Below are positions 1,052 through 52,444 of a stretch of 62,906 nt of DNA, one piece after another. The DNA is from an archaeon. Lineage in GTDB: Archaea > Thermoplasmatota > Thermoplasmata > WALJ01. Below the pieces are notes generated by a model, which saw only the letters and a program-made list of their open reading frames with translations, did no database searches and was not told the DNA's origin. Position numbers and translations under genes: made by a program. The stretch spans positions 1-62,906 of the forward strand of contig JAJRTH010000093.1 of NCBI GenBank assembly GCA_024278375.1. Direction: 5' to 3'. Every line of letters starts with the position of its first letter. The first letter of the stretch is position 1.

Positions 1052-1071
1052 GAAAAACCCTATTGCGCTCC

Positions 1072-3014: not shown

Positions 3015-3597
3015 GATAAGGCTGCAGAGGCTCGAGAGGTTTGTGCCCGAACATCCCGTGCTCGAGCAGTACGAAACACCGGCAGGTATCGCCGCGGACA
3101 TGCTTTTCTTCGCCTATTCCATGGGAGACATAGAGAACAGGGTTGTATGTGATCTCGGCTGCGGTTCAGGGGTTTTTGCGATAGGTGCCTGTGTTCTCGG
3201 GGCAAAAAGGGTCATCGGCGTCGATGTGGACGGGAAAGCTCTGGACATTGCCATTAAAAATGCGGAATATGAAGGTGTCAGCGTGGATTTCATACTACAG
3301 GATGTGAAAAGCTTTAATATGCAGTGTGATACCGTGATTCAGAATCCGCCTTTTGGCTCTCAGAACAGACATGCGGACCGCCCTTTCATAGATAAGGCCA
3401 TGGAAATCGCGGATGTGGTCTATACCCTGCATCTCGAAAAAACCGCTCTGTTCGTAAGAGAATACGTGGAATCGAAAGGCGGAAAGATAAGCCACGAGCT
3501 CACCTATGAGTTCCCGATCAAACACATGTTCGGCTTCCACAGGAAGGAAGTGATGAAGTTCAATGTAAAGATGTTCAGAATAGAGGTAAACAGATAG
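2995..3597 (+). CDS. class I SAM-dependent N6-adenine methyltransferase, METTL5-like
   Basis: 200-aa ORF. SAM-binding motif 'VCDLGCGSGVFAIGA' and catalytic 'NPPFG'. TAG stop. Confidence 0.7.
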   Translation: MKKRELEIRLQRLERFVPEHPVLEQYETPAGIAADMLFFAYSMGDIENRVVCDLGCGSGVFAIGACVLGAKRVIGVDVDGKALDIAIKNAEYEGVSVDFILQDVKSFNMQCDTVIQNPPFGSQNRHADRPFIDKAMEIADVVYTLHLEKTALFVREYVESKGGKISHELTYEFPIKHMFGFHRKEVMKFNVKMFRIEVNR

Positions 3598-7754: not shown

Positions 7755-8657
7755 TTACGCCACAAGAACGACCCTACTAGGCCTGTACTCCATAACGACT
7801 TCCCTTCCGGTATGCCCTGCAATCTTTTGCCCGAATTCCCTTATCTCCTCGTGAGAAGGCATGTTGTCCATCGTCATCCTTTCCCTCGAGTAGCCAACGA
7901 AGACGTAGCCTTTTGCCTATATGAAATCTGGGTCCGCTTTCTCGATGAGCTTCGCATATTCTTTTTCGTGGCCTTCCATATTCCAACCTTTTACCAGAGT
8001 ATGCCTTACGACCGTCCTGGTATCGAGCGAAGGGAGGAGTCCAAGGGTCTCGTTAAGTCTTTCCCACCCATCGCTTATCATGGGAACTAGGAGCCGATTG
8101 TAGAGGTCCTCGTTGGGCGCCGCGACGGTGACATAAAGCTGTGTCGGTAGGGGGTCGAGGTTCTCTATGGCCTTCGGGAGGGTTCCGTTGGTGACCAGGA
8201 AGGTCGTCATGCCTCTTCTGTGGGCCAGTTCTATGAACTCCCCGAGTCTGGGATAGAGGGTCGGCTCTCCGCTGAGGGATATGGCTATCTGGCTCGGCTC
8301 GTAGGCCTCATCGAACATCTCTCTCTTCACCCTCGAGTCTCCTTTGAATCCCGAAATCAGTTCTCTCTGCGCTCCGATTAGCCCATCCAGTATGAATTCA
8401 GGGTCGTCGACCTTTTTGAGGGCGGTTTCCGTGAACGCCTGAAATCTCCAGCAGAAAAGGCAGTTCTGTGTGCACTGATTTACGGCGGGAGACATCTGAA
8501 GGCATCTGTGAGACTGTATCTCGTAGAATACCTCCTTGTAGCACGGCCGTCCCCTGACCAGCTTCTCTTTAAGCCAGTGACACAGTTTGACGCCGCTGTG
8601 CCCACCTACGATTCTGTAGTGCTGTTTTTCCAGTATCCTTTTGAGCTCGGGCTCCAT
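7755..8657 (-). CDS. taw1: tRNA 4-demethylwyosine synthase Taw1/TYW1 (radical SAM), interrupted by one in-frame TAG at 7917-7919
   Basis: The track ORF 7917-8657 carries the radical-SAM cluster 'CTQNCLFCWR'. The same frame continues after TAG as 'AKGYVFVGYSRERMTMDNMPSHEEIREFGQK...' to TAA at 7755-7757. The total of 300 codons matches the usual Taw1 length. Confidence 0.8.
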
Positions 8658-8666
8658 CGTATCCTC

Positions 8667-9431
8667 CTACATCTCCGGGTATTTGCCGTTTTTCATGAAC
8701 TGCAGACTCCTTATTCCGTCATCGATTCCTCTGTCCATCTCGAGGACGAGATTTCCTCCGTATCCTCCGAGAGCATTCAGCAGCCTGTCCCAGTCTATGG
8801 TCCCTTCACCAAGGGGAAGGTGCAGGTCCGCCTTTCCGTCATTGTCGTGTAAATGCACGTTTCCGAACATTCTCCTGTGTTCCAGAAATGCCTCCATGGT
8901 GCCCGTCGTGTTGGCGTGTCCCGCATCAAAGCACCACTTTATCTCCAGACCTTCGGTCATCTCCACAATATCTTCCGGCCGCTTGCCGACGGTTATGAAT
9001 GTATCCGGCATGTTCTCCAGAGCAAGGATTATTCCATTGTCCAGAGCGTGTTTCTCAAGGATTTCAAGGCTCTTTTTCGTCTCTTCCCTGACTCTTGGAG
9101 GATCCCTTAAAAGAGGCGTTTTAAAACCGGGATGGATGGTCATGATCTTCACTCCCAATCTTCCCGCGGACTCGATGGCCTTTATTATCTCGTTAAGAGC
9201 GCTCTCCCTCATGAATGGATTTCCTCCCGCGATGTTTATGTCGCTGAGAGGTGCGTGTACCTGTATCTCAAGAGGGCGAGATTCCAGGGCCTCCGCGAGC
9301 TTCTTTTCAATGCCCGGAAGATACAAAGTTCCCTCCGCGGTTATCTCCCATCCTTCGAAGTTCCTCTCTACGAGTTCGAAGACCCTCTCGAAGGGCATGT
9401 TGCAGAACGATGCGCTCGATATCATTATCAT
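8667..9431 (-). CDS. sugar phosphate isomerase/epimerase (xylose isomerase-like TIM barrel)
   Basis: 254-aa ORF. 'HLHDNDGKADLHLPLGEGTIDW' and 'ALENMP' blocks of the AP_endonuc_2/TIM-barrel family. TAG stop. Confidence 0.7.
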   Translation of the reverse strand: MIMISSASFCNMPFERVFELVERNFEGWEITAEGTLYLPGIEKKLAEALESRPLEIQVHAPLSDINIAGGNPFMRESALNEIIKAIESAGRLGVKIMTIHPGFKTPLLRDPPRVREETKKSLEILEKHALDNGIILALENMPDTFITVGKRPEDIVEMTEGLEIKWCFDAGHANTTGTMEAFLEHRRMFGNVHLHDNDGKADLHLPLGEGTIDWDRLLNALGGYGGNLVLEMDRGIDDGIRSLQFMKNGKYPEM

Positions 9432-14174: not shown

Positions 14175-14771
14175 TTATATCGAGAGAAACACCGATATCA
14201 GCACAGGCACAGCCATGCTCAGCACAGAGCCGTTGTAAAGCCCCCACAAAATCGCCTCCTTTCCCGAGAATCTGGTTATCAATGGCAGTGTGGTGTCCAT
14301 AGCGGTGGCTCCTCCCATCGCTATGGAAACCTCCGAGGGGGCGCGCTCTCCGATGAGCGGCACCGTGAGATAGGTCATTATCTCCCTGCCTATGTTTGAG
14401 AGGAAACCGAGAGCGCCGTAAATCGGTGACACAACTGATATCATGGGGCCTGCGAGGGAATACCAGCCGAGGCCTCCGGCAACAGCGAGGGAGAATTTCA
14501 GCGGGACTCCTGTCACTGCGCCTGCGGCAATCCCACCCAGGAGCGCCCCCGATATGGAAAACACAGGCAACAGCAGCGGCGATTTCCTTCCGCTCTTAAG
14601 GGCCTTCTTTATCGGTTCCGGATTGTATCCAACCGCAATTCCTATGAGAAGCATCAGGATGTAGAGGAATGCCATGCCGGATTGTGAGTAAAACAGAGAA
14701 TGCTCCGGCAGGAGATATCCGACTAAAATGCCCGAGAGCAGCGCTCCCCCCGTATACCTAATCACGGGCAA
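14175..14771 (-). CDS. LysO/DUF340 family membrane protein (large part)
   Basis: 198-aa polytopic ORF with TTG start. Overlaps the upstream small DUF340-like ORF by 14 nt. Confidence 0.5.
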   Translation of the reverse strand: MPVIRYTGGALLSGILVGYLLPEHSLFYSQSGMAFLYILMLLIGIAVGYNPEPIKKALKSGRKSPLLLPVFSISGALLGGIAAGAVTGVPLKFSLAVAGGLGWYSLAGPMISVVSPIYGALGFLSNIGREIMTYLTVPLIGERAPSEVSIAMGGATAMDTTLPLITRFSGKEAILWGLYNGSVLSMAVPVLISVFLSI

Positions 14772-15021
14772 GCCTCCTGAGAATCACAGCTCCCAGAATG
14801 GAGCCGAGAACAGTGAGAACCGCAAAAATCACCGACTGATAACCTATCAGAAGAGCACTGCCCCTAACGCCGGGGCTTGCGCCTATGGATGCACCCATGA
14901 AGAATATCAGAAGAATAAGAGGCAGTGTTATGGAGCGCTCGTCTCTGAATTTCACGCCCGTTTTCCTGAGGAGAGCTCCGAGAAGAGCGCCGAACAGAAG
15001 CGTAAGAACCAGATAAAGCAT
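14758..15021 (-). CDS. LysO/DUF340 family membrane protein (small part)
   Basis: 87-aa ORF with 3 TM helices. TAG stop. Arrangement is typical of split archaeal DUF340 pairs. Confidence 0.45.
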   Translation of the reverse strand: MLYLVLTLLFGALLGALLRKTGVKFRDERSITLPLILLIFFMGASIGASPGVRGSALLIGYQSVIFAVLTVLGSILGAVILRRLARD

Positions 15022-15050
15022 GGGAGCGAATGAGCGAAGGTATTTTTCTT

Positions 15051-16298
15051 TTACCCGTAGAACCTCTCAGCCATCTCCCTCGCCCTCCTAATGGCCTCCT
15101 CCTCGCCGTCTATCCTCCTGTTCCTCATCAATGTCCTTCCGTCACAGATGACCGTGTCCACAGCGCTCCCATTGGCAGCATAGACCGCACTCGATTCCCA
15201 GTTATGCATCGGCGTCATCTCAGGAATGTCTGATCTTATGAGGATTATGTCCGCCAGATATCCTTCTTCTATCTTTCCGGCGTTGAACCCGAGGGCCTGA
15301 GTGCCCCATTCCGTTGCCATCTTTAGGGCCTCGTGGGCAGGCAGAGCCGTCGGGTCTCCGGATAATTTCTGCAAGAGCGCTGCCGTTTTCATCTCCTCGA
15401 GCATGTCGAGATTGTTGTTGCTCGCCGCTCCGTCTGTGCCTAAAACGGGTTTTATTCCGTGCTTCCTCATCCGGGAATAGGGCATTGCCCTACCAACAGC
15501 GAGCTTCATATTGGATGCCGGATTGTGCGAAGGCCAGACACCTCTTTTCGCGTAAATCTCAATGTCCCTGTCATCGAGCCATACGGAATGCGCGGCGATT
15601 ACATCGCTTCCCAGGAACCCCATGGAATCGAGGTATTTCACCGGGCTCATGCCATGCTGCTCAAATGAATCTTTTACCTCCTTTTCTGTCTCAGAGACAT
15701 GGGTATGGAGCCTGAGCCCTTTTTCTCTGGCAAATTCGGCGCTCCACTCCAATCCTTCTCTGGAAACGGTGTAGATGGCATGAGGGGCGACCGCTGCCTT
15801 TATTCTGGGATTGTTCATGGTTTCAACGAATCTCACGAATTTTTCCGTCTCCTTTATCTCGTTCTCCCTCTTTTCCTCATCGAAAAGGTCGATGAAACCG
15901 TAGCCGAGGAGAGCCCTTACTCCCGAATCCTGGACAGCCCTTGCGACATCCTCCATGAAGAAGTACATATCGTTGAAGGCCGTTGTTCCCGACTTTATCA
16001 TCTCGATTATGGCCAATCTTGTTCCCCAGTAGACCATCTCTCCGTCCAGTTTTGCCTCGGCGGGCCATATCCTGTTCTGAAGCCATTCATGGAGCGGCAT
16101 ATCATCCCCGTAACCTCTGAGAAGAGTCATCGCAGCATGGGTGTGGGTGTTCACCAGACCCGGCATGGCAATCGTATTCGCCCCGTCTATTACCTCATCC
16201 GCCTCCGTAATCCTTCCAATCTCTGAAATCCTGTTTTCTTCGATGTATATATGAGATTCCTTACCACCGAGGAGCGTGTTTTTTATCAAAATTGACAT
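15051..16298 (-). CDS. mtaD: 5'-methylthioadenosine/S-adenosylhomocysteine deaminase (amidohydrolase)
   Basis: 'GLVNTHTHAAMTLLRGYGDDMPLHEWL' and 'HVSETEKE' motifs. Start moved to 'MSILIKNT'. Confidence 0.8.
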   Translation of the reverse strand: MSILIKNTLLGGKESHIYIEENRISEIGRITEADEVIDGANTIAMPGLVNTHTHAAMTLLRGYGDDMPLHEWLQNRIWPAEAKLDGEMVYWGTRLAIIEMIKSGTTAFNDMYFFMEDVARAVQDSGVRALLGYGFIDLFDEEKRENEIKETEKFVRFVETMNNPRIKAAVAPHAIYTVSREGLEWSAEFAREKGLRLHTHVSETEKEVKDSFEQHGMSPVKYLDSMGFLGSDVIAAHSVWLDDRDIEIYAKRGVWPSHNPASNMKLAVGRAMPYSRMRKHGIKPVLGTDGAASNNNLDMLEEMKTAALLQKLSGDPTALPAHEALKMATEWGTQALGFNAGKIEEGYLADIILIRSDIPEMTPMHNWESSAVYAANGSAVDTVICDGRTLMRNRRIDGEEEAIRRAREMAERFYG

Positions 16299-20081: not shown

Positions 20082-21266
20082 TCACAGTTCTTCGAACTCC
20101 GCTCCGCATGCTATACATATCTCAGCATCGTCGTCGTTAATAGCGCCGCATACGGGACATTTCTTCTTTCCTTCCGGCACATCGCCTTCTTTCTTCTTTC
20201 TGCCCCTTCTGCCCTTCTTATCTTCAGACGGAGGGGGCTCCTCCGGTTTCTTCTCCGGCTCAGGCTCCGGTTCGGGTTCCACATGCTTCTCCGGCTCCGG
20301 TCTTCGATCCTCTTCGGCAGACACCGGCACTTCTGAACTCAGGGTTATGTTGACATTGACATTTTCCGGTTTCTCGTCCTCTTCTTCCTCCCCCTCATCC
20401 TCTATTATAACCGTCTTCTTCGTGTTCGCCCGCGGTATCACGGAGCCCTTTATAGAGACATTGGCACCGGTAGAGAGCGCTCCGTAGTACTCGACATTCT
20501 CCTCCACGGTTACTCCGTCTTCAAGAATGACGTCCCCGCCCGCGGATATACCCAGGACGTTGCAGTGTCTCCCGACCTTGACCTTTCCGTCCGCTACGAT
20601 CTCCTCGACGTTGCACTTTGCGCTCAGATGTACGTCTCCCTTTGAAATCACGTATCCTGCGACCTCGGTTCCGCTGGACAGCTTGACGGAGCCTTCGGCC
20701 TGTATAACTCCCTTTATCATTCCTTTGCTTCCAACGACTATGTCTTCTTTGGAGATTATATCGCCGTTGACCTCCACTTTCGTGCCGAGCACTATGCTCT
20801 TTTCAGATTCTATGGTGCCCTCGACCTGGGTCTCGTCCGGTATTGCGAGTTCTCCTCCTTTGACAATAAGGGCGCTCTTAACGCTCCTCTCCCTCATTAG
20901 TTTCTGGAGCTCTATATTCTCCTCTTTGAGCCGGTTTATCTCCTCCTGACAGTGGATTATCTCCCTTCTGAGCCTTGATATCTCCTCCTCCCTCTGCTTC
21001 TGTCTCTCCAGCAGGGCCTCGTCCTTTTCACCTCCTTCCCTTATCTTCTTCTGTAGAAAGGATATCCTTCTCTTTAGTTTGACTATCTCCTCGTCCTTTT
21101 CCTTTATCCTCTCCCACTTCTCCTTCAACATAACCTTCTTCTCGTTTTCGAGCCTTTTGACCTCCGTCCGGAGCCTGGCCTCGTTTTCTTTCAGTTTTTT
21201 AACAAGAGCAGCGTACTTTTTGAGCCTTCTTCTCAGATATTCTATATGCTCGGCTTCTTTCGCCAT
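20082..21266 (-). CDS. coiled-coil / bactofilin-like beta-helix / zinc-ribbon protein
   Basis: 394-aa ORF. It has about 130 aa of heptad-rich N-terminus, then a bactofilin-type repeat region ('VEVNGDIISKEDIVVGSKGMIKGVIQAEGSVKLSSGTEVAGYVISKGDVHL...'). An acidic/PEPE linker follows, and the C-terminus is 'CPVCG...CIACG'. Confidence 0.6.
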   Translation of the reverse strand: MAKEAEHIEYLRRRLKKYAALVKKLKENEARLRTEVKRLENEKKVMLKEKWERIKEKDEEIVKLKRRISFLQKKIREGGEKDEALLERQKQREEEISRLRREIIHCQEEINRLKEENIELQKLMRERSVKSALIVKGGELAIPDETQVEGTIESEKSIVLGTKVEVNGDIISKEDIVVGSKGMIKGVIQAEGSVKLSSGTEVAGYVISKGDVHLSAKCNVEEIVADGKVKVGRHCNVLGISAGGDVILEDGVTVEENVEYYGALSTGANVSIKGSVIPRANTKKTVIIEDEGEEEEDEKPENVNVNITLSSEVPVSAEEDRRPEPEKHVEPEPEPEPEKKPEEPPPSEDKKGRRGRKKKEGDVPEGKKKCPVCGAINDDDAEICIACGAEFEEL

Positions 21267-23069: not shown

Positions 23070-23699
23070 ATGCCCTCCAAGGGAGAGCTCGTCATGGAGC
23101 GCCTCATGCACCTGCATGAAGGCAGATTCGTCGGGCTTAAGCACGAAAATGTCTTCCAGCTTACCGTTGCCACAATACTTTCGGCGCAGACGACCGATGC
23201 CTCGGTGAACAGGGTAACGCCGGAGTTCTTCGGAAGGTTCCCGGATGCGAAAAGTCTGGCAGAGGCTGATGTTGAAGAAGTCAAGAAGTACATAAAGAGC
23301 ATAGGACTGTACAACACGAAGGCGAAGAACATCGTGGGGCTGGCGAGGATTCTGGTGGAGAGGTACGGTGGTAAGGTGCCAGATAACATGGAAGAACTCA
23401 CTGCGCTCCCGGGAATAGGGAGGAAGACCGCCAACATAATCCTATCAGTTGGATTCGATAAGACAGAGGGAATTGCGGTGGACACGCATGTCTTCCGCAT
23501 TGCCAGAAGGATAGGACTTTCAAACGGAAAAACTCCGTTGCAGGTGGAAAAGGACCTTCTCAGAGAGATTCCGAGAAAGTACTGGAAGTATGTCAATCAC
23601 ATACTGATAACCCACGGGAGGGCAGTATGCACGGCCAGGAATCCAAAGTGCGATGAATGCGATATAAGTGACCTGTGCGGGAGGAATGGGGTGGAATAG
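23070..23699 (+). CDS. nth: endonuclease III
   Basis: HhH-GPD core ('LTALPGIGRKTANI') and a C-terminal 4Fe-4S loop 'CTARNPKCDECDISDLC'. TAG stop. Confidence 0.85.
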   Translation: MPSKGELVMERLMHLHEGRFVGLKHENVFQLTVATILSAQTTDASVNRVTPEFFGRFPDAKSLAEADVEEVKKYIKSIGLYNTKAKNIVGLARILVERYGGKVPDNMEELTALPGIGRKTANIILSVGFDKTEGIAVDTHVFRIARRIGLSNGKTPLQVEKDLLREIPRKYWKYVNHILITHGRAVCTARNPKCDECDISDLCGRNGVE

Positions 23700-24151: not shown

Positions 24152-24215
24152 GATAGAACATAGGGCCATATGTGATGCTAATTGATGGTTGTCTGGGTTC
24201 TCAGGAGGAAAAACG

Positions 24216-24845
24216 TTGTCAAGCAGATTGAGTGAGATATTCAAGGACGAGAAACTCGTAAACCGGATTAAAACGAAACTGCCTTATCTCTTTCAGCTTG
24301 CGGAGCTGGAAAGCTCTAGAGCTGGAAAGATAGGAATGGAAGTGGGCTCTCTAAGAGAGAGAATCCTCATAGCGCTCCTGATATACAAGTTCGGGGAGGC
24401 CAATGTGGAGATCCGGGCGATAACGGAACCGGAAGTCGATGTCTGGCTCTTTGGGAATCCGATTTCCATAAAGACGATAACCGGTAAGAGCCTCGGAGGT
24501 GTTAAACTAATATGGACCGTAGACGCACAGAAGGCTGCTGAGTTCAGAAGATATTATGTACCTTCGTGCGATATTCTGCTTGTTCGGATAAACTGGGGAG
24601 GCCTAGGTGGGTTTTACTACATCCCTCTAGAGGCCCAGAGGAAACTTCTCGAAGAGATAGGGAGAGAACGATATATCAAACTGCCCAAACCGGGGACAAA
24701 TCCGAGGGGAGTGGAGATAAGCAAAGAAGCCCTTAATGCTCTGGTAGATGATGGGCTCTCAGACTACATAGAGATAAGATGGGAGAAAAAAGAAATCGAT
24801 TATAATGCCTATAAAAGATGGGTGGAATACTGGGGGGAGGATTGA
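24216..24845 (+). CDS. putative type II restriction endonuclease (PD-(D/E)XK-like)
   Basis: Start moved to the TTG preceded by 'AGGAGG'. 'EPEVDVWLFGNPISIKT' fits an E/D...(S/E)xK nuclease core. Its stop lies immediately before the methyltransferase ATG (GAT TGA ATG). Confidence 0.5.
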   Translation: MSSRLSEIFKDEKLVNRIKTKLPYLFQLAELESSRAGKIGMEVGSLRERILIALLIYKFGEANVEIRAITEPEVDVWLFGNPISIKTITGKSLGGVKLIWTVDAQKAAEFRRYYVPSCDILLVRINWGGLGGFYYIPLEAQRKLLEEIGRERYIKLPKPGTNPRGVEISKEALNALVDDGLSDYIEIRWEKKEIDYNAYKRWVEYWGED

Positions 24846-25799
24846 ATGAAAAAGAATGGAAAGAGAAAAGGAACCGAAACCAGCAAATTCGGCGTTCCAG
24901 GCAGGATAAATCACGATTCCAGCAAGTTCTATTCGGGAAGGCTTTACGAGGGCCTGCCATCGGAAAAAAAGGTTGAGTACCATGAAAACGAGATTCCGGA
25001 AGAGAATCTGGACAGGATATTCTGCAAATCCAGCGAAAAAATGGAGGAATTGCCGGATGAGAGCGTGCATCTCATGGTAACTTCTCCGCCGTATAATGTT
25101 GGAAAGGAGTATGACGAGAATCTTACGCTTCAGGAATACAGGGATTTTCTGAAAAGAGTTTGGGCGGAAACATATAGGGCCCTAGTTCCTGGGGGAAGGG
25201 TTTGCATAAATGTAGCAAATCTTGGAAGGAGACCCTATATTCCTCTCAATTCTTTCATTATTCAGGATATGCTCGAACTGGGATTTCTCATGCGCGGGGA
25301 GATAATATGGGATAAAGGTTCGAGCGCCAGTCCATCCACGGCATGGGGGAGCTGGATGTCTGCCAAAAATCCGGTATTGAGGGATGTTCATGAGTACATC
25401 CTGGTGTTTTCAAAAGATACTTTCACCCGCGATAGTCTCAAATCATCCAGAAGCACCATTTCCAGGGAGGAATTTCTGGAGTTAACAAAAAGCGTATGGT
25501 CTTTTCCCGCTGTTTCGGCGAAGAAAATAGGGCATCCCGCACCCTTCCCTGTTGAGCTGCCCTACCGGTGCATACAGCTCTATACATTCAAAGAAGATGT
25601 GGTCCTCGACCCTTTCATGGGTAGCGGACAGACCGCAATAGCGGCCATAAAAACCGGAAGGCACTATATTGGTTATGAGATAAACGAGGAGTATGTGAGG
25701 AGCGCTCAAAAGAGGATCAGAGAATTTCTGATAGAGTTCAGATCGCCCAAACTAATAGATTACATAGATGGAAAAAACGATGCGAAAGAGGGGGTTTAG
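24846..25799 (+). CDS. DNA methyltransferase, N4-cytosine/N6-adenine beta class
   Basis: Catalytic 'TSPPYN' motif precedes the SAM-binding 'VLDPFMGSGQTAIAA' (beta-class order). TAG stop. Confidence 0.8.
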   Translation: MKKNGKRKGTETSKFGVPGRINHDSSKFYSGRLYEGLPSEKKVEYHENEIPEENLDRIFCKSSEKMEELPDESVHLMVTSPPYNVGKEYDENLTLQEYRDFLKRVWAETYRALVPGGRVCINVANLGRRPYIPLNSFIIQDMLELGFLMRGEIIWDKGSSASPSTAWGSWMSAKNPVLRDVHEYILVFSKDTFTRDSLKSSRSTISREEFLELTKSVWSFPAVSAKKIGHPAPFPVELPYRCIQLYTFKEDVVLDPFMGSGQTAIAAIKTGRHYIGYEINEEYVRSAQKRIREFLIEFRSPKLIDYIDGKNDAKEGV

Positions 25800-26834: not shown

Positions 26835-26863
26835 GTTTCAAGGCCCCGCTCCTCTTTTTATCC

Positions 26864-26878
26864 AAAAAGTCTATAAAG
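26864..26878 (+). promoter_or_regulatory. BRE/TATA-like element upstream of the coiled-coil gene
   Basis: 'AAAAAGTCTATAAAG' lies about 28-40 nt upstream of the GTG at 26906. Confidence 0.35.
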
Positions 26879-26905
26879 AATGGATGTTATGCCGGCGGGG
26901 ATACC

Positions 26906-28402
26906 GTGAAGAGCGCTACACATCGAAGCACGAAAAGCCTGATTATAAAAGGGCTCAAGGACCTCTCCGAAAACAAGGAAGCGAGGAGAAAAGTGGATGA
27001 GAGTTATTTCAAGGAGCTGAAAGGCAAGGAACACTGGATGCTTTACCTGCTGATGTATGCCATTGACAATATGGAGAATGAGCTCTTCAGTGCCATTGAG
27101 GGACTTTCCAACGAGCAGAAGAGGTTCGAAGCCCAGACGTTCAAGGCCATAAAGGAGGAGAGAGAGGCACTTATAAAGGTTAGGAAATCCATAGAGAACA
27201 ACCTCAGAACATTCGAGGAGAAGATGGCGGAACTACTGGACAGACGCATGGCGGAGCAGAAAGAGGAGATTGCCAAGGAGTTAGAGAACCTCCTGGAAGG
27301 CACGCTGAACAAATCGCTCAGGGAAATCGACGAATCGATTTCCGATCTGTCCACAACAATCCAGAACATGTCCTCGGGATTTTCCGACACCTACAAACTG
27401 GTATCACACAATCAGAGCATGATTGCCAAGATCGGTAAAAAACTCGAGGAGATAAGCGAGGACATCTCCGCTCTCGACGAGAGGATCGGTATCGAAATAT
27501 CGAGAATACCGGGTGCGGAGGGCGCTGCAAAGGCCATGAAGGAGCTTGAAAGGAGCATCGAATCCATGAAGGCCATATCCGGAGATGTGGAAAAGATAAA
27601 AGCCGCTCTGGAAGGGCTTGAGGGGCTTGACAAAATATCACGGTTCTCGGATGTGGTGGAGGGGCTTGAAAAAGAGGTCGAAGAGGTCAAGAACGGGCTG
27701 GATTCCCTCAATTCCGTGATGTCCGAGAAAATCGCTGAGGCCATGAGGAGCGCGGGTGCATCGGCGGAACTCTAGAGAAGAATCAAGGAGTTGGGTGACA
27801 AGGTAGATTCCATAAACATAGACCGTATCTCCGAATCGTTGAAGGGGCTCGAAGGCCTCGATCAGATAGCCTCCCAGGTCGAGGATGTCAGGAAAAGGCT
27901 GGGATCTTTTGAGGAGCTGGGGGATTTCTACGGCGAAATAGACGATTTGAGAAAGAAACTGGAAAGCATAAAGACCATAGAGGACGAAGTTAAAAGAGAC
28001 ATGGACGTTCTGAGGAGGGTTGTCGGGGAATTCGAGGAGGTGGCCTCTCTGACCGAGATGCTGGGAGAGATGTCTTCCAGAGTCAAGAAAGTGGAAGAGT
28101 TCGGTGAAAAACTGAGTTCCATCGATATCCAAGGCCTTAAAGACAAAATCGAATCCGCCGGTATTGCTTCGTTCGACCCCGCTCTGATTGAGAAACTCGA
28201 TTCCATAGGCGCTCTAGCTGAAGAAATCGAGACCCTTAAACCGATAAAGAAAGAGGTTGCTTCCCTCCAGGAGAAGGTTATGGAGATAGAGAAAAAGGTG
28301 GATATGATACTGAAATCCACGAACAAACATCTTGATGTAGTGGAAAAGAACCTCAAAGCGGAGATTGCGAAGTTAAGGGGAGAGGGTGGTGGAAGTGGAT
28401 AG
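26906..28402 (+). CDS. long coiled-coil protein; two same-frame ORFs joined by a single in-frame TAG (27773-27775)
   Basis: ORFs 26906-27775 and 27791-28402 are in the same frame, with only TAG plus 5 sense codons between them ('...AGASAEL*RRIKELGDKVDSI...'). Both halves carry the motif L(E/K)GLEGLD(K/Q)I. The second half has only a TTG start, with no properly spaced SD. Confidence 0.55.
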
Positions 28403-28425
28403 AGGGGTTTATAGGGGATTCTAGG

Positions 28426-28830
28426 ATGGTTAGATGTGAGAATTGTGGGGAGATAATTTCAATACATAATGATGTCTGCCCTTACTGTGGAGCGCTGCAG
28501 AGACGAGGCAAAAAGATTGGTGAGAAAACATCTGGCATAGCTATATTCAAGGCGCTGATTGTTGGTCTTTCATTAATGTTTCTTGGTATGGTTTTAGGCT
28601 TATTCACCTTTGGTCTTTTAGGAATGGGCATAGGTACTCTTTCCGGTTTATCTCTAGGGCTATGCCTCGGTACAAAAATGTATTTACCCAATCAATCAAA
28701 AACCCCCACAAAAACACCAATAACCTCTGTTCTTATTCTTCTTATAGTCTTCTTCGTTACTTTCATTTTAATATTTTTGGTCTTCTCTATGACTCCGTAT
28801 CAACCGCCTAAAAAAAGAAACATTTTGTAG
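28426..28830 (+). CDS. N-terminal zinc-ribbon membrane protein
   Basis: 134-aa ORF. 'CENCG...CPYCG' ribbon followed by about 3 TM helices. AT-rich region. TAG stop. See the A7 run at 28810-28816. Confidence 0.5.
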   Translation: MVRCENCGEIISIHNDVCPYCGALQRRGKKIGEKTSGIAIFKALIVGLSLMFLGMVLGLFTFGLLGMGIGTLSGLSLGLCLGTKMYLPNQSKTPTKTPITSVLILLIVFFVTFILIFLVFSMTPYQPPKKRNIL

Positions 28831-29102: not shown

Positions 29103-30098
29103 TTACAGCCTCACTCTTTTTATCTTCAGATATCTCGGTTTTTCTGAGGCCTCCGCCAGCAGAAAGTTCTTCTTCACCCCATGGGCTAGCCTAACCCCTC
29201 TGCTTATCTCGGGCCATGTGCCGACATAGTTCTCAGGGACTGCGTGGACAAGATATGGGGCGTGGTGTTCTATGTCTCTCACATAAACCCTGAAATGCGT
29301 GCCGTATTTGAAACCGGTTTTCACGATCAGCCCTCTGTCCCTGAGATCGGAGTATATTCTGATTTTCCGTTCAAACTCAGGGTCACTCACACACATTTCC
29401 TTTATTATACCCTCCGCAGATCTGGTTTTTCCCCCCACATCCTTTATTTCAGTGATGCCTTTCCTCTCCAAATATACACATTCTATGGCGGAAAGATGCA
29501 GATTCTTTTCTATTATTTTCCCGTAGAACCCTTTTTTATGGATGCCTCCGAAATCCTCCGCGAACCCCATCTCGCCCAGAAACATCACGTATACGTTCTC
29601 CTCGGACCGCAGTTTCAGGGGCCCCCAGGGATCCTCTCTTTCAATTGAGTAGTAAGTTAGGTCCCCATCGCCGTCAACGACCGCGAATATTCTTTTACCA
29701 TCTCCCACCTTCTCGAATATATCGTCGAATGAAAAAGTCACCCTCTCATAAACAGGCACTATAAGATATTCGTTCTCCTCTACCCCCCGTACTGCCTTTA
29801 TGTGCCCGTTCTCTCTCACCATGAATCCTCTCTTCCTTAAATCGCGATATACCAGGTACCTAACCTCAAAATCATGGGTTCTCTCAACAGCGTATCTGAG
29901 AAACTCGCTGAGAGTTAAATTCTCGACAGTTAGTTTTCCCTCATTCATGAGATAAAATGCTTCCACGAACGTGAGAGAGAGAGCGCCGCCTTTTATGAAC
30001 TCTCCGGTCTGGCCTTTGCTGTGAATCTTTCCCGCCTCTACAACATCTCTGACAATAACCCTCCCATCACTAATGATGCCTGTGAAGGACTCCCTCAA
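29103..30098 (-). CDS. endA: tRNA-splicing endonuclease (two-repeat type)
   Basis: 331-aa ORF. Catalytic C-terminal unit 'GLIVKTGFKYGTHFRVY...HAPYLVHAV' plus a degenerate N-terminal copy. Confidence 0.85.
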   Translation of the reverse strand: MRESFTGIISDGRVIVRDVVEAGKIHSKGQTGEFIKGGALSLTFVEAFYLMNEGKLTVENLTLSEFLRYAVERTHDFEVRYLVYRDLRKRGFMVRENGHIKAVRGVEENEYLIVPVYERVTFSFDDIFEKVGDGKRIFAVVDGDGDLTYYSIEREDPWGPLKLRSEENVYVMFLGEMGFAEDFGGIHKKGFYGKIIEKNLHLSAIECVYLERKGITEIKDVGGKTRSAEGIIKEMCVSDPEFERKIRIYSDLRDRGLIVKTGFKYGTHFRVYVRDIEHHAPYLVHAVPENYVGTWPEISRGVRLAHGVKKNFLLAEASEKPRYLKIKRVRL

Positions 30099-30507: not shown

Positions 30508-31461
30508 TCAGTCCGTGATTCCCTCTTCCATTATTCTCAGGACAGCTTCGCCCTCGGGAAGGTTCGGTGAATCTATGAGTCTGGCGATTCTCTTGTCTCC
30601 CTTTGATTTTCTGAGATATACCCTGAACGTTGCTGTGTGTCCGACTATGTGCCCTCCTATCGGCCTTGTCGGATCCCCGAAGAAGGCATCCGGCTTTGCA
30701 GCGACTTGGTTGGTCACACATATGGCGGCATTGTTCAGCGTTGCGAACTTCAGGAGTTTGTGCATGTGCTGGTTCAATAGCTGCTGCCTTTCCGCAAGAG
30801 CACCTCTTCCGACATATTCCGCCCTGAAATGAGCGGTCAGGGAATCCACTATGACAAGCTTTATAGGCCTTTCCTTTGCAATCTCAAACAGTTTGTCCAC
30901 AAGAAGTATCTGATGACTTGAGTTGTATGCTCTGGCAACATGTATCTTCTAGAGCACGTCTTCCGGATTTATGTCTATACCCAGCCTCTTCGCAGTACCT
31001 TCCACCATCTGCACTATTCTTTCCGGTCTGAAGGTGTTCTCCGTATCTATCATGGCAACCTCTCCTTCCAGGCCCCCGTATTCCTTTGAGAGAGTGGTAT
31101 TCACGGCCAGCTGATGCATGACCTGCGTCTTTCCGGACCCGAACTCGCCGAAGAACTCGGTTATGGACTCTGTCTCGACGCCCCCACCCAGGAGGTCATC
31201 GAAGGCTTTCGAGCCCGTGGTAACCTTCCTTATCTCCTTCCTTCTCTCCATTATCTCGGTACCGCTCTCAAAATCTCCGATATCGGCGGCCCTTTTAGCC
31301 GCATTTATTATCTTCGCAGCTATCCCCTCTCCTATCTCTGCGATTTCCGCAAGATTTCTCGGGGATTCCACGGCTATTGCCATTATGCTGTCATATCCTG
31401 CGTCTTTGAGCTTCTCGGCGGTCGCAGGCCCCACGCCGGGTAATTTTTCTATTTCATCCAT
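30508..31461 (-). CDS. radA: DNA repair and recombination protein RadA, interrupted by one in-frame TAG at 30949-30951
   Basis: The N-terminal ORF (30949-31461) has the HhH domain and Walker A 'GEFGSGKTQ'. The same frame continues after TAG as '[49 protein letters not shown]...' to TGA at 30508. The total of 318 codons matches the usual RadA length. Confidence 0.9.
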
Positions 31462-31764: not shown

Positions 31765-32942
31765 GGAGGACGAAGATTGTCACGGTCACGATTCTTCTTT
31801 CGATGCTGTTCTTTACCATGCCTTTTTTGGTGGTCAGTGCTAAGGAATGGGAACCCAGAGAGCCGATAGAGATCCATAGAGGAGCAGTGAATGAAAGCAC
31901 AAAGTGGTATGATTATGGGATTTCTTGGTCCTCAGATGGGGAATATTTTGCATTTAGATGTATGTGCGAGCCAAAGCTTACGGTTGTGAATACAGACAAT
32001 GGCAAGATTGTGTTCTCAAAAAATTATTCTCCCTGTTTTGACTTAGCGGCCTTGAAATTTTCACCGGACGGAAGATATTTGGCTGTCGGCTCATCGAAAA
32101 CTCTAGAAATCTTTAATACAGATGGCTGGGGACTTGTAAAAAATTATAGTGCTTATGCATATTCTCTTTCTTGGAGCCCGAACGGAAGATATTTGGCCTA
32201 TCCAGCAACTATGGGCGGCAATATTGGAATAATAGACACCAGAAACTGGGAGATATCTCATGAATTCAAAAATAAGTCGGGGATTGTGTCTTGGTCTTCA
32301 GATGGGAAATATATCGCATATGCTTCTTCGGGATATGTAGGCATAATAAATGCCTTGACCTGGAATGAAACCCTATTGTTGAGGCTTCCTTCGATGTTGT
32401 CTGTGGTCGAATGTCTCGAATGGTCACCTGATTCTAGATATCTGGTTGCAGGAGAACTTGGAGGCTCTCTTCAGATCTGGAATACAAGCACATGGCATAT
32501 CGAGAATACTGTGGAGTTTGCACACGGAATACCTTTTTCTCTCTCATGGAATCCCAATAAGCCCATTCTTGCTGTTGGTTTGGACTCGAATATGCTGGCT
32601 GAGGATTCGATTCCAAAGCTATATCTCATAGACACGGAAAACTGGAGTATAGAGATAGAAATGAAACCCATAAATGAAACTGACCTTGCCTCTCTTAATA
32701 AAGACCCCAACTGGATAAATTTTTATTCTGTTGCTTGGTCTCCAGACGGAAATTCTCTTGCTGTCGGTTATAAAGACGTTATAGTTTATACAACGGAGAG
32801 AGGGCTCTTCGAACCCGAAGAGACAACAATGCTAGACACTTATTTATGGGCCCCTCTCGCTATGGTAATGCTAGTAGCGATTTCCGGCGGAGCAATATGG
32901 TACTGGAAGAAGGGAAGAAGCAAAACTAAAGATAAAAAATAG
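31761..32942 (+). CDS. secreted/anchored WD40-like beta-propeller repeat protein
   Basis: 393-aa ORF with a signal-like N-terminus and 7 repeats of the type 'SWS(P/S)DG(R/K)Y(L/I)A'. C-terminal TM helix plus a Lys-rich tail. TAG then TGA tandem stops. Confidence 0.65.
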   Translation: MRRTKIVTVTILLSMLFFTMPFLVVSAKEWEPREPIEIHRGAVNESTKWYDYGISWSSDGEYFAFRCMCEPKLTVVNTDNGKIVFSKNYSPCFDLAALKFSPDGRYLAVGSSKTLEIFNTDGWGLVKNYSAYAYSLSWSPNGRYLAYPATMGGNIGIIDTRNWEISHEFKNKSGIVSWSSDGKYIAYASSGYVGIINALTWNETLLLRLPSMLSVVECLEWSPDSRYLVAGELGGSLQIWNTSTWHIENTVEFAHGIPFSLSWNPNKPILAVGLDSNMLAEDSIPKLYLIDTENWSIEIEMKPINETDLASLNKDPNWINFYSVAWSPDGNSLAVGYKDVIVYTTERGLFEPEETTMLDTYLWAPLAMVMLVAISGGAIWYWKKGRSKTKDKK

Positions 32943-32973
32943 TGACTTTAGAACAGTTCTTATGAACACAATC

Positions 32974-49529: not shown

Positions 49530-49829
49530 ATGGAAAACGGGGAAAGAGCGGCTCAGAGGAGAGCTCTCCTCGAGAGCATAATAGAGAACCGGAAGATGGA
49601 GGCCTATGTCGAGCACAAGACCAGAGAAATGCACGTCTGCTTCATGTGCGGCGGGATATTCTACAAAAAGCCCGGTAAGGACATAGGTAAAAAATGGATA
49701 TGCATAGATTGCCTGCGCTCCCTGAAAGAGATTCTCGATGGACTGGACCAGTGGGAAGCCGAGCTCGCCATAGAAAAGGAGTTCAACGAGCGCTATGAGA
49801 GGGCTCTTAAAGGCGCTCACGAACCGTGA
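49530..49829 (+). CDS. small zinc-ribbon protein, unknown function
   Basis: Start moved to 'MENGERAAQ'. 'CFMCG...CIDC' ribbon. The 3' end overlaps the convergent PLD gene by 13 nt. Confidence 0.4.
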   Translation: MENGERAAQRRALLESIIENRKMEAYVEHKTREMHVCFMCGGIFYKKPGKDIGKKWICIDCLRSLKEILDGLDQWEAELAIEKEFNERYERALKGAHEP

Positions 49830-52444
49830 CCTTTTTTCTTTTCCTTATTGCCGGATATCTTAATGGCAGACAGCAGGATTACTATCGAAGGCACCACGAG
49901 CAGATATTGCAATGTGTTCGGGTCCGAGGAACCCCCATGTGAGACCGCTTCCTCCGGTATTCCTGACTCTTTTATGTTATTATGTGCGCTATCGTTATCC
50001 GTACGGGGGTTTTCCACAAAAACAGAAGGTGAAACAGCCTGTTCATCGCGCTCGGGAAGAACCGAGCGAGACTCTTCGGGGATTATGCATATGTTAACAC
50101 AGGCCGAATCCTCATTCCCATCAGCATCTCTGACCGTCAGGACCAGTTCGTGCTCGCCGGGATATGCGAAACTGAGAACAAGCGTTGTGTTGTCGGATAT
50201 TGTGTCGCCGTCGAGAAGCCACTCATAGTCCGAGATACCGGAATCGTCGTACGAAGAAAGAGCATCGAAGGTACAGGTCTCGTTAACCCTGAGAATACGC
50301 TTTCCGTTTATCGCGGCCACGGGCAGAGTGAAATCGGATTTCCAGTCGTCCATGAACAGAGTCGTGAGATACTCCGCCACACCTCTGTTTTCTATCAGCA
50401 CCGCAAGTTCCCTGTTATTCGTGAACGAGTTCTGCGCCCAATTGAAGCTGGATATTAGCGACATATTCCCGTCTATAATCATCCCTTTGTTGTGAACCTT
50501 TACAAGCCCATGTCTGCCAAGGTCAATAACCCTTGCTTCAAGATCCACGGAATGCTCTGCAGCAAAGCAGTTCAGAAATTCCGCGAGTTCGTCGTTGTCA
50601 TCACCACCGTCCGTATTATAGTAAGAGCCGTCGAGGAGAACCTTGACCTCGCAGCCTCTGAGCGATGCGTTGAGGAGTGCGCTTACGAGAGGATTCCGGA
50701 ACTCCCCGCTCCCGCACTTCCATTCCGGTGTTATATAGAACTGTTCGACATAGATGGATTTCTCCGCAGAGCTTATGGCACCTATTATCTCATCCAACCC
50801 GGCATCCGGGCCGGGAAGCAGGGTTATACTGAAATTTCCCTCGAAATCCGCAGGTTCGGAACCTTTTGCCGGAAACGGGGTCCAGTCCGAATCCGCAACT
50901 TCGAAATCCAGAGAATCGAAGGGAACGATGTCCGAGAAGTTAAGGTCGGAGTCCGTGAAAAACAGCCTCCTCATGTATCCGGCGGCGCTCTTGTTCCTTA
51001 TCACCACACCCCATCCTCTGTTTCCGTTCTTCCCGTCAGTTTTCATGGCATCTCCGTTGAAGTTCTCCGAGGATATGATCAGCGCCTCAGAATCCACGAC
51101 CATATACTTGGCGTGGTCGTATCTGTATCTCTCAAAGTTTCCTGCGCTCTCGTTGTTCATCTCGAGTCTGACATCCGCTCCCGAATTCGAAAGCACCTCC
51201 AGCACCTTCATCTCATCTTCCGGCATTCCTCCAACAGGATTGCCTTCCACAAGGATTTTCACCTCCACTCCTCTCGCAATGGCTCCGAGGATTTCCTGCG
51301 CTATTTCCTGACTTCTGAACTCGTAGACATTTATCAGAATCTCCCTGTCAGCGGCTTTTATCTCGTTTTTCACGGCCTTTAGGGCGGATTCCGGTGCCGA
51401 GAAAAGGGTCACTGATCCGCTGAACGAGATATTAAGCGGAGAAAGAGAAGAGCGCCCTATTTTTCTGACCTTCCATCCGTTTTCATCGTAATATACCTCT
51501 CCTTTCCGGGGAGCGCTCAGCTCTCCATTCTCTCCGTAAGAGACAGAGAAAAGCATACTGCCAGAAGGCGAGCAGAACAGGATTTCGTCTCCCGCGTTTG
51601 CAAACTGAGGATAGCTCGAAGGCGTGTAGCAGTCGCCATAGCTCAATGTCGGGGCAAAACCCATCTCGCCCAGGAATCCCGTGTAATTCTGTGTCACATA
51701 TATGCTCGAATTAGCCTCGAGGACCGTTCCGGAAGGCAGGTATGCATATCCCTCGCCATCCGTTATATAGCATCCGGAAACATCCATGTCGGAATTCGAG
51801 GGATTCCTTATCTCCACAAATTCGTCGGAGGCTCTGGCACAGGGATAAAAGGATGAGATCACAACCCCCGTTCCGGAATTCATGTCCGGGTTTCTTTTCC
51901 CGGGCGTCGGCATGGCGTTGAACCATTCCCCGGTATCCGAGGAGCGAGCCATTGCCATCCCTGTTTCCGTCTCGATTTTTTCATCCCATTCGATTCCTTC
52001 CGGAGGTGCATCCACCATGCTCCCGCCCCCATAGGCCAGATAATCCACGGTGTTTCCAGCATCATCCAGCAAAAGAAGGTCGTCTCCACCGTTGTTCAGC
52101 ATGGATGTACTCTTCCACATGTGGAAATAGAACACACCGTTCTCCGTCCTGTTCTCACCCGGACCGACGTAAATCACCACTCTATCGCCGGGCTCTATAA
52201 GTATGTCGGGAAAAACGAAGTCCGTCGCTCCGTCCTGGTCGCTCAGTGACCAGTTCAGCATATCCACAGCACTGTTTCCGAGGTTCATTATCTCTATGAA
52301 CTCTCCCTCAAGGTCGGAGCCGACAGGGTCGGGCAGCAGCTCCGTTATTCTTATACCGCTTTCGACAGGGCCGACATCCGCGTTTCCGGGCAACATTGGA
52401 AATGCCAGGAAGAGCGCAAGAAGTAAGGGAATCATCCGTTTCAT
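49817..52444 (-). CDS. secreted, membrane-anchored LTD-LTD-PLD-PLD-PKD protein (PLD-superfamily nuclease/phospholipase)
   Basis: 875-aa ORF with a signal peptide and two lamin-tail-like domains ('ITELLPDPVGSDLEGEFIEIMNLG', 'SDEFVEIRNPSNSDMDVSG'). Two HKD motifs ('HAKYMVVD...SSENF', 'HNKGMIID...SSFNW'). A PKD-like domain and a C-terminal TM helix follow. Confidence 0.7.
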   Translation of the reverse strand: MKRMIPLLLALFLAFPMLPGNADVGPVESGIRITELLPDPVGSDLEGEFIEIMNLGNSAVDMLNWSLSDQDGATDFVFPDILIEPGDRVVIYVGPGENRTENGVFYFHMWKSTSMLNNGGDDLLLLDDAGNTVDYLAYGGGSMVDAPPEGIEWDEKIETETGMAMARSSDTGEWFNAMPTPGKRNPDMNSGTGVVISSFYPCARASDEFVEIRNPSNSDMDVSGCYITDGEGYAYLPSGTVLEANSSIYVTQNYTGFLGEMGFAPTLSYGDCYTPSSYPQFANAGDEILFCSPSGSMLFSVSYGENGELSAPRKGEVYYDENGWKVRKIGRSSLSPLNISFSGSVTLFSAPESALKAVKNEIKAADREILINVYEFRSQEIAQEILGAIARGVEVKILVEGNPVGGMPEDEMKVLEVLSNSGADVRLEMNNESAGNFERYRYDHAKYMVVDSEALIISSENFNGDAMKTDGKNGNRGWGVVIRNKSAAGYMRRLFFTDSDLNFSDIVPFDSLDFEVADSDWTPFPAKGSEPADFEGNFSITLLPGPDAGLDEIIGAISSAEKSIYVEQFYITPEWKCGSGEFRNPLVSALLNASLRGCEVKVLLDGSYYNTDGGDDNDELAEFLNCFAAEHSVDLEARVIDLGRHGLVKVHNKGMIIDGNMSLISSFNWAQNSFTNNRELAVLIENRGVAEYLTTLFMDDWKSDFTLPVAAINGKRILRVNETCTFDALSSYDDSGISDYEWLLDGDTISDNTTLVLSFAYPGEHELVLTVRDADGNEDSACVNICIIPEESRSVLPERDEQAVSPSVFVENPRTDNDSAHNNIKESGIPEEAVSHGGSSDPNTLQYLLVVPSIVILLSAIKISGNKEKKKGHGS

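What the first reader, a model, noticed from the sequence alone, without database searches (positions are those of the whole stretch)
26906..28402. Two coiled-coil ORFs are one frame joined by a TAG
ORF 26906-27775 and ORF 27791-28402 are in the same frame and are separated only by TAG plus 5 sense codons ('...MRSAGASAEL*RRIKELGDKVDSINIDRISESLKGLEGLD...'). The intervening codons look like coiled-coil sequence.

Both halves share the unusual motif L(E/K)GLEGLD(K/Q)I plus a similar Glu/Lys/Leu composition. The second ORF has only a TTG start, and its 'AAGGAG' abuts that TTG with no spacer. This looks like either a single protein of about 498 aa read through UAG, or a short/long isoform pair set by readthrough efficiency. 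Function is unknown and no enzymatic motif is visible.
Basis: seen in the sequence. Interest (0 to 1): 0.65.

Follow-up and report, generated by a model that had tools for sequence, protein, structure and literature searches.

The report
One coiled-coil gene with in-frame TAG
The two ORFs are one conserved archaeal gene interrupted by a TAG codon, and two housekeeping genes on the same contig (RadA and a tRNA-modification enzyme) also carry an in-frame TAG, so this uncultured vent archaeon probably reads TAG as an amino acid (most likely pyrrolysine) at least part of the time.

Summary
ORFs 26906-27775 and 27791-28402 share a frame and are separated by TAG plus five sense codons.

Every relative found encodes one uninterrupted protein of 463-525 aa. 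The closest relative (L001, 91% aa identity) and contigs of run X1 have GAA (Glu) where the window has TAG. The supposed TTG start and AAGGAG are ordinary codons (K-E-L) and are not conserved in L001.

The TAG is not an isolated case. RadA (TAG at 30949-51, minus strand) and Taw1/TYW1 (TAG at 7917-19, minus strand) each carry one in-frame TAG inside a single Pfam domain. No gene has an internal TAA or TGA, and no frameshift was seen in 63 genes.

TAG also ends 17 of 63 genes. Reading through four of those would create long out-of-frame overlaps, and backup stops are not enriched after TAG.

Best reading: UAG is ambiguous here, both sense and stop, most likely through a Pyl-type suppressor. That would give a 498-aa protein plus a 289-aa truncated form. 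No pyl gene or tRNA(CUA) lies in the window, so the inserted amino acid is inferred, not shown.

This is a new case of a known kind of recoding, in a hydrothermal Thermoplasmata lineage. The protein belongs to a small, uncharacterised coiled-coil family.

The parts
26850..26905 (+). Conserved promoter and 5' region, with TATA-like elements TTTTTATCC (26854-62) and TCTATAAAG (26869-77) about 30 nt upstream of the GTG. This suggests a short-leader or leaderless mRNA.
   Evidence: about 55 nt upstream of the start are nearly identical to L001, although synonymous divergence in the CDS exceeds 1. No comparable element lies before 27791.
26906..28402 (+). One gene for a 498-codon coiled-coil protein of an uncharacterised archaeal family, with codon 290 = TAG.
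   Evidence: every relative is a single ORF. dN/dS against L001 is 0.019 upstream and 0.047 downstream of the TAG. The conserved C-terminal motif IEKKVDMILKSTNKHLD lies downstream of the TAG.
27773..27775 (+). In-frame TAG, inferred to be decoded as an amino acid (probably Pyl) in competition with termination.
   Evidence: L001 and a run X1 contig have GAA (Glu) here. Distant homologues have Lys. The site is in a poorly conserved linker next to a 16-residue indel. No stable RNA structure follows it (z = 0.41).
27785..27793 (+). AAGGAG + TTG. These are ordinary sense codons (K-E-L), not a start signal.
   Evidence: There is no spacer between AAGGAG and TTG. L001 has AGAGAA CTG at the same place.
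28400..28456 (+). Gene end: TAG (28400-02), a second in-frame TAG (28412-14), then TAA (28454-56) inside the next gene.
   Evidence: The terminal TAG is conserved in L001, and the second TAG is TGG in L001. The extension has a negative coding score.
30508..31458 (-). RadA recombinase with one in-frame TAG at 30949-30951.
   Evidence: The Pfam Rad51 domain matches in one stretch across the TAG (residues 73-317, E = 2.6e-85). Fifteen relatives at 83-91% identity are uninterrupted, and the column is hypervariable. The X1 relative has TCA (Ser).
7755..8654 (-). Taw1/TYW1 radical-SAM tRNA 4-demethylwyosine synthase with one in-frame TAG at 7917-7919.
   Evidence: The Pfam Wyosine_form domain spans the TAG. 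The aligned residue is Glu in PDB 2yx0 and 2z2u. The X1 relative has GAG, and the five differences downstream of the TAG all fall at third codon positions.

Best explanation
Positions 26906-28402 are a single gene for a ~498-aa coiled-coil protein. Its codon 290 mutated from Glu (GAA/GAG) to TAG in this lineage. The organism's translation apparatus decodes UAG as an amino acid, so full-length protein is still made.

The most likely agent is a pyrrolysyl-tRNA(CUA)/PylRS system encoded elsewhere in the genome, which needs no cis element. Suppression would compete with aRF1, so UAG is ambiguous. Internal UAGs (this gene, RadA, Taw1) would yield a full-length and a truncated form, here 498 and 289 aa. 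The 17 genes that end in UAG would mostly terminate, with occasional short extensions.

Shown: the two ORFs are one gene in all relatives, three internal TAGs lie inside conserved genes, and TAG is still used as a terminal stop. Inferred: that readthrough happens, that the inserted residue is Pyl, and that decoding is ambiguous rather than complete.
For: 1. All seven homologues, plus L001 and L006, are single ORFs across the junction, with Glu or Lys at the TAG column.
2. Two more conserved genes in the same 63 kb have a single in-frame TAG inside one Pfam domain: RadA and Taw1.
3. No gene has an internal TAA or TGA, and none of 63 genes looks frameshifted. The LysO pair is the usual two-gene arrangement.
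4. The part downstream of the TAG is under strong purifying selection (dN/dS 0.047). It carries the family's most conserved C-terminal motif, which is also present in short family members.
5. The sites are tolerant or varied. The RadA column holds S/K/R/G/E/N/A in close relatives. The ancestral codons differ between sites (GAA, TCA, GAG), which argues against reassignment to one canonical amino acid.
6. No PYLIS-like structure follows any of the three TAGs. This fits context-independent Pyl insertion (PMC12626013).
7. Precedent exists. In-frame TAGs in non-methyltransferase genes occur in Pyl archaea, and TAG use in Pyl+ genomes ranges from 1 to 27% (bioRxiv 10.1101/2024.09.30.615893; PMC12626013).
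Against: - No pylT, pylS, pylBCD or methylamine methyltransferase lies in the window. The only tRNA is Gly-GCC.
- TAG ends 17 of 63 genes (27%), which is closer to Pyl-minus genomes (median 22%; PMC12626013).
- Readthrough of four terminal TAGs would give out-of-frame overlaps of more than 60 nt.
- In-frame backup stops are not enriched after TAG (p = 0.57).
- About 60 kb from related genomes shows no internal TAG, and the relatives have sense codons at all three sites.
- Three of three nonsense codons being TAG is only p ~ 0.10-0.14 given the codon usage.
- Non-methanogenic clades basal to Methanomassiliicoccales were reported to lack pyl genes (10.1101/2020.03.09.984617).
- No reads from this organism could be found to confirm the base calls.
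Confidence: 0.6

Rival explanations
1. These are recent nonsense mutations or consensus errors. The TAGs are true stops, so the gene makes only a 289-aa truncated protein, and RadA and Taw1 are likewise inactivated. The cause would be a decaying genome, a defective strain, or an assembly or polishing artefact.
For: Relatives have sense codons at all three sites. TAG is a normal, frequent terminal stop here with no backup-stop signature. TAG-only is not statistically compelling with n = 3. No Pyl machinery was seen, and no reads were available to verify the bases.
Against: Three null alleles in 63 genes, including RadA, extrapolates to roughly 100 per genome. Yet there are no frameshifts, no internal TAA or TGA, and no truncated genes. 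Substitution errors frequent enough to create three stops would imply about 0.1% consensus error, which normally comes with indels. The regions downstream of the TAGs are fully intact (where differences are only at third positions).
Confidence: 0.2
2. UAG is read through without pyrrolysine. Either a suppressor tRNA(CUA) charged with a canonical amino acid does it, or near-cognate tRNAs decode UAG at low levels.
For: No pyl genes are visible. Two of the three sites were Glu in relatives. The lineage is not a recognised Pyl clade.
Against: No natural non-Pyl UAG suppressor system or code is established in Archaea (10.1101/2024.09.30.615893). The RadA site was Ser or hypervariable, not Glu. Glu and Lys codons are simply the commonest one-step precursors of TAG here (GAG 992, AAG 701). 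Near-cognate readthrough of a few percent is unlikely to sustain RadA.
Confidence: 0.12
3. The locus is a genuinely split gene. Two polypeptides are made independently, the second starting at TTG 27791, and they may reassemble as a coiled-coil complex.
For: A TTG preceded by AAGGAG exists. Gene callers have deposited the 203-aa product as a separate protein (P0129).
Against: There is no spacer between AAGGAG and TTG. Neither element is conserved in the 91%-identical L001. No promoter-like or terminator-like site lies between the halves. No relative is split. Splitting does not explain the TAGs inside RadA and Taw1, where no restart codon follows.
Confidence: 0.05

Closest known systems
Ambiguous UAG decoding in Pyl-encoding archaea (Methanosarcina acetivorans RdmS; PMC12626013)
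   Same: An in-frame TAG sits in a non-methyltransferase gene at a non-catalytic position. No cis element is needed. Long and short protein forms are expected, and TAG also serves as a genuine stop in other genes.
   Different: No Pyl machinery has been demonstrated for this organism. TAG stop usage is much higher here (27% against about 5-8%). The lineage is an uncultured hydrothermal Thermoplasmata, not a methanogen of known physiology.
Genetic Code 34, all TAG = Pyl (Kivenson et al., bioRxiv 10.1101/2024.09.30.615893), e.g. the JDFR-19 genome with 13% TAG genes and 191 predicted Pyl proteins
   Same: There are 'Category 1' genes, with homology on both sides of an internal TAG, including housekeeping enzymes. 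The density is high, about three per 63 kb.
   Different: Most TAG-bearing genes here are not Category 1 (3 of 20). At least four are 'Category 4', where readthrough gives an out-of-frame overlap of more than 60 nt. The pattern therefore resembles the paper's transitional Groups A/B, not the fully recoded Group C.
Coiled-coil families that score weakly (Pfam Baculo_PEP_C PF04513, DUF1664 PF07889; NCBIfam archaeal SMC-related ASRP, Rad50 coiled coil)
   Same: Long, Glu/Lys/Leu-rich, all-helical sequence.
   Different: The matches look compositional, with zero or one individually significant stretch, and the NCBIfam scores are far below their cut-offs. The real family is small and undescribed. 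It is defined by the motifs RRKVDESYFKELKGKEHW, ALDERIGIEISRIPG and IEKKVDMILKSTNKHLD.

Membership tests
Pyrrolysine-decoding archaeon (Pyl machinery) | tRNA-Pyl (pylT, anticodon CUA) encoded in the genome | tested here: inconclusive
   ARAGORN and Rfam find only tRNA-Gly(GCC) in the 63-kb window. The rest of the genome is not available.
Pyrrolysine-decoding archaeon (Pyl machinery) | pylS and pylBCD genes | tested here: inconclusive
   None of the 63 window genes resembles them by inspection or in partial Pfam/NCBIfam scans. Absence from one contig says nothing about the genome.
Pyrrolysine-decoding archaeon (Pyl machinery) | Pyl-containing methylamine methyltransferases (mtmB/mtbB/mttB with in-frame TAG) | not testable with these tools
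   There is no such gene in the window, and other contigs of the organism could not be retrieved.
Pyrrolysine-decoding archaeon (Pyl machinery) | In-frame TAG in conserved genes with homology on both sides ('Category 1') | tested here: met
   The target gene, RadA and Taw1 all qualify.
Genetic Code 34 (complete TAG-to-Pyl reassignment) | Most TAG codons are internal, and few or no readthroughs cause large out-of-frame overlaps | tested here: not met
   Three TAGs are internal and 17 are terminal. Readthrough of 1072-2247(-), 2998-3597(+), 14758-15066(-) and 23073-23699(+) gives out-of-frame overlaps of 71-241 nt.
Genetic Code 34 (complete TAG-to-Pyl reassignment) | Proteomic detection of Pyl at TAG positions genome-wide | not testable with these tools
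   The organism is uncultured, and no proteome or reads were found.
Ambiguous UAG (sense and stop) decoding | The same genome uses TAG both inside conserved ORFs and as the natural end of genes | tested here: met
   Three internal TAGs coexist with 17 terminal TAGs whose extensions have negative coding scores. The target's terminal TAG is conserved in L001.
Cis-element-programmed stop-codon recoding (PYLIS/SECIS-like) | A stable, conserved RNA structure just 3' of the recoded stop | tested here: not met
   The 108 nt after each TAG fold no better than shuffles (z = 0.41, 1.50, -0.68).
Pfam Baculo_PEP_C / DUF1664 (protein family of the product) | A domain match above the gathering score with a significant individual stretch | tested here: inconclusive
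   Whole-protein scores are just above cut-off (45.7 against 38, and 37.0 against 34.6), but with 0 and 1 significant stretches. This is typical of coiled-coil composition.

The most novel reading that the evidence does not exclude
This would be a hydrothermal-vent Thermoplasmata lineage outside the recognised Pyl clades that only recently began decoding UAG as sense. It would have done so by lateral gain of a Pyl cassette or through a non-Pyl suppressor tRNA. UAG codons have already entered housekeeping genes such as RadA, while UAG still terminates about a quarter of all genes. That would be a very early, highly ambiguous stage of a stop-codon reassignment.
Probability: 0.3. Interest if true: 0.75.

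Novelty: new member of a known kind. Interest (0 to 1): 0.5.

Why it matters
First, it corrects the annotation. Public protein collections hold this gene as two proteins (P0005 and P0129), and RadA and Taw1 would also be called as fragments.

Second, if UAG suppression is confirmed, this genome combines a high density of internal TAGs in essential genes with Pyl-minus-like TAG stop usage and no backup-stop adaptation. Models of stop-codon reassignment predict such a state as an early 'ambiguous intermediate', but it is rarely seen. Close relatives at about 90% identity have sense codons at all three sites, so the pair would allow the order of events in a code change to be dated and dissected.

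Tried and rejected
- Structure route: AlphaFold2 on the 8-sequence alignment gave pLDDT 48.6 (all helices). I did not run a fold search because the matches would be meaningless.
- Family route: Pfam and NCBIfam give only compositional coiled-coil hits. The 1.84-billion-protein profile search shows a tiny family (3 representatives below 1e-30), plus short relatives and generic coiled coils. The genomic context of the short relatives was uninformative.
- Read support: no run holds the window. One run (X1) holds only a ~90% relative.
- Metagenome scan: it returned only two loci already known.
- Exact-protein look-ups of window proteins found nothing on record.
- Supplementary tables of the two key papers are not held.
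- TAG = Glu reassignment: rejected as the leading idea, because the RadA site is Ser or hypervariable and Glu/Lys codons dominate the one-step precursors of TAG.
- Frameshift or pseudogene signs: searched for and not found.
- Backup-stop enrichment after TAG: tested, negative.
- PylS search: I ran no further search on a PylS query, because hits could not be linked to this organism.

Full report
**Observation.**
The window reads exactly as described.
- A GTG-started ORF (26906-27775, 289 aa) and a TTG-started ORF (27791-28402, 203 aa) lie in the same + frame.
- They are separated by TAG (27773-75) and five sense codons (RRIKE).
- AAGGAG abuts the TTG with no spacer.
- Both halves carry an L-x-GLEGLD-x-I motif. 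BLASTP between the halves gives 16/43 identities, E = 7e-4.
- Codon-usage coding scores are equally high on both sides of the TAG.

**One gene, not two.**
- A search of 5.8 billion proteins with the fused sequence found seven relatives: P0001-4 at 67-70% identity and P0006-8 at about 42%. All are single proteins of 463-525 aa covering 99% of the fused query.
- In the alignment, the column of the TAG holds Glu in the close relatives and Lys in the distant ones. It sits in a weakly conserved linker beside a 16-residue indel.
- The species-representative genome scan gave L001, a MAG from a Southwest Indian Ridge black-smoker chimney (PMC9769843). It is 91% identical, has one ORF, and has GAA where the window has TAG.
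- A Logan contig of run X1 shows the same GAA.
- L006 (GCA_054002815.1) keeps the neighbourhood RFC-RadA-PRC-EndA next to a 495-aa gene on the opposite strand, in the position the target occupies in the window. I take it to be the single-ORF orthologue.
- The supposed start signal is not conserved: L001 has AGAGAA-CTG in place of AAGGAG-TTG.
- By contrast, about 55 nt upstream of the GTG at 26906, including TATA-like elements, are almost identical between the window and L001, even though dS in the coding region exceeds 1.
- dN/dS against L001 is 0.019 before the TAG and 0.047 after it.
- The family's best-conserved motif, IEKKVDMILKSTNKHLD, lies after the TAG. It recurs at the C-terminus of some short (250-340 aa) family members. 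A product truncated at residue 289 would lack it.

**The TAG belongs to the genome, not the gene.**
- RadA (30508-31458, minus strand) has one in-frame TAG at 30949-51. The Pfam Rad51 domain matches in a single stretch across it (E = 2.6e-85).
- Fifteen RadA relatives at 83-91% identity are uninterrupted 317-aa proteins. The aligned column is hypervariable (S, K, R, G, E, N, A). The X1 relative has TCA there.
- Taw1/TYW1 (7755-8654, minus strand) has one in-frame TAG at 7917-19 inside the Wyosine_form domain. The aligned residue is Glu in PDB 2yx0 and 2z2u.
- The X1 relative has GAG at the Taw1 site, and the five differences downstream of it are all at third codon positions.
- A census of 63 genes gives terminal stops TAA 24, TGA 22 and TAG 17. 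Internal stops are TAG 3, TAA 0 and TGA 0.
- Same-frame neighbours joined by TAA or TGA all show an obvious new start and are separate genes. No frameshifted gene was seen. The two LysO ORFs are the normal small-plus-large pair.

**Limits of that evidence.**
- Given this codon usage, 47-52% of one-step nonsense mutations would create TAG. Three out of three is therefore only p ~ 0.10-0.14.
- The stronger argument is biological. Three otherwise intact genes with nonsense codons, RadA among them, on a contig with no other lesions do not look like gene decay or sequencing error.
- TAG is clearly also a terminal signal. The extensions after the 17 terminal TAGs have negative coding scores. Four readthroughs would overlap the next gene out of frame by 71-241 nt.
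- In-frame backup stops are no closer after TAG than after TAA or TGA (p = 0.57).
- About 60 kb from related genomes shows no internal TAG.
- No stable RNA structure follows any of the three TAGs.
- The window holds no pyl gene, no methylamine methyltransferase and no tRNA(CUA).

**Mechanism.**
The best-supported reading is that this archaeon suppresses UAG with an amino acid. Pyrrolysine is the only natural archaeal system known to do this, and it needs no cis element (PMC12626013).

The window's mix of three internal TAGs, four large out-of-frame overlaps on readthrough and 27% TAG stops does not fit the fully recoded Group C of Kivenson et al. (10.1101/2024.09.30.615893). It looks like their transitional Groups A/B, and like the dual stop/sense reading shown for M. 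acetivorans RdmS, where long and short forms coexist (PMC12626013). Pyl+ genomes with up to 27% TAG stops are on record.

For this gene the prediction is therefore a 498-aa protein carrying one Pyl in a linker, plus a 289-aa truncated form. The ratio would be set by the supply of Pyl-tRNA against aRF1. This is inferred, not shown.

**Rivals.**
- Nonsense mutations or errors (0.2).
- Non-Pyl suppression (0.12).
- A truly split gene (0.05).

The ancestral codons at the three sites differ (GAA, TCA, GAG). That argues against reassignment to a single canonical amino acid.

**Who carries it.**
RadA is 83-91% identical to a small clade known only from hydrothermal metagenomes. It is about 72% identical to Thermoplasmata and Methanomassiliicoccales MAGs. 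The relatives that carry names are labelled Thermoplasmata archaeon. Clades basal to Methanomassiliicoccales were reported to lack pyl genes (10.1101/2020.03.09.984617). If this lineage does have a Pyl system, it probably acquired it sporadically.

**The protein.**
It is all-helical (AlphaFold2 pLDDT 48.6, too low for a fold search). Family matches are only compositional. The family is tiny. Its cellular function remains unknown. From the sequence, it is a soluble coiled-coil protein with conserved N- and C-terminal motifs and a variable number of internal repeats.

**Verdict.**
The finding is a new example of a known kind of recoding. Its interest lies in the unusual genomic state and the lineage, and it depends on confirming the suppressor machinery.

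Noticed in passing
window 30508-31458 (-), TAG at 30949-30951: RadA recombinase carries an in-frame TAG inside the Rad51 domain. Close relatives are uninterrupted, and the aligned column is hypervariable. The X1 relative has TCA.
   Followed up: yes
window 7755-8654 (-), TAG at 7917-7919; 8667-9428 (-): Taw1/TYW1 carries an in-frame TAG where homologues have Glu. The upstream xylose-isomerase-like TIM-barrel gene ends in TAG and is in frame with Taw1, with four codons before Taw1's ATG. Readthrough would fuse the two proteins.
   Followed up: partly
window 1072-2247 (-), 2998-3597 (+), 14758-15066 (-), 23073-23699 (+): These genes end in TAG, and reading through it would overlap the next gene out of frame by 71-241 nt. 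This argues that TAG still works as a stop.
   Followed up: yes
window 28400-28414; 1060-1074 (-); 32940-32945: Tandem stops follow terminal TAGs. The target gene and the glycosyltransferase 1072-2247 each have a second TAG three codons later, and the WD40 gene ends TAG-TGA. These are anecdotal, because backup stops are not enriched overall.
   Followed up: partly
window 29103-30095 (-) versus L004, L005, L006, L009: The tRNA-splicing endonuclease EndA ends ...KRVRL-TAG in four relatives but ends in TAA in the window. This is a single possible case of a TAG stop being replaced.
   Followed up: no
window 24192-25799 (+): A ThaI-type restriction endonuclease (PF15514, E = 3e-92) sits next to a DNA methyltransferase, two genes upstream of the target. 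The restriction-modification pair appears to be absent upstream of the L001 orthologue: ORF sizes there differ (356 and 422 aa), but those ORFs were not translated or annotated.
   Followed up: no
window 53367-53903 (-): A 178-aa protein with a signal-like N-terminus is built of repeats resembling 'LVMEEINVE(S/T)', about 18 aa each. It has no Pfam match.
   Followed up: no
window 20082-21263 (-): A 394-aa protein combines an N-terminal coiled coil, a bactofilin domain, an acidic Pro/Glu-rich tail and a C-terminal zinc ribbon.
   Followed up: no
window 49817-52441 (-): An 874-aa secreted or anchored protein has two lamin-tail domains, two PLD-like domains and a PKD domain.
   Followed up: no
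window 26850-26905 versus L001 3678-3732: About 55 nt upstream of the target's GTG are almost identical between genomes whose coding regions are saturated at synonymous sites. This is a strongly constrained promoter or 5' element.
   Followed up: partly
P0130, P0131 (database proteins): Two database proteins join a fragment of this family to fumarate hydratase or to methylmalonyl-CoA mutase sequence. They are probably chimeric short contigs.
   Followed up: no
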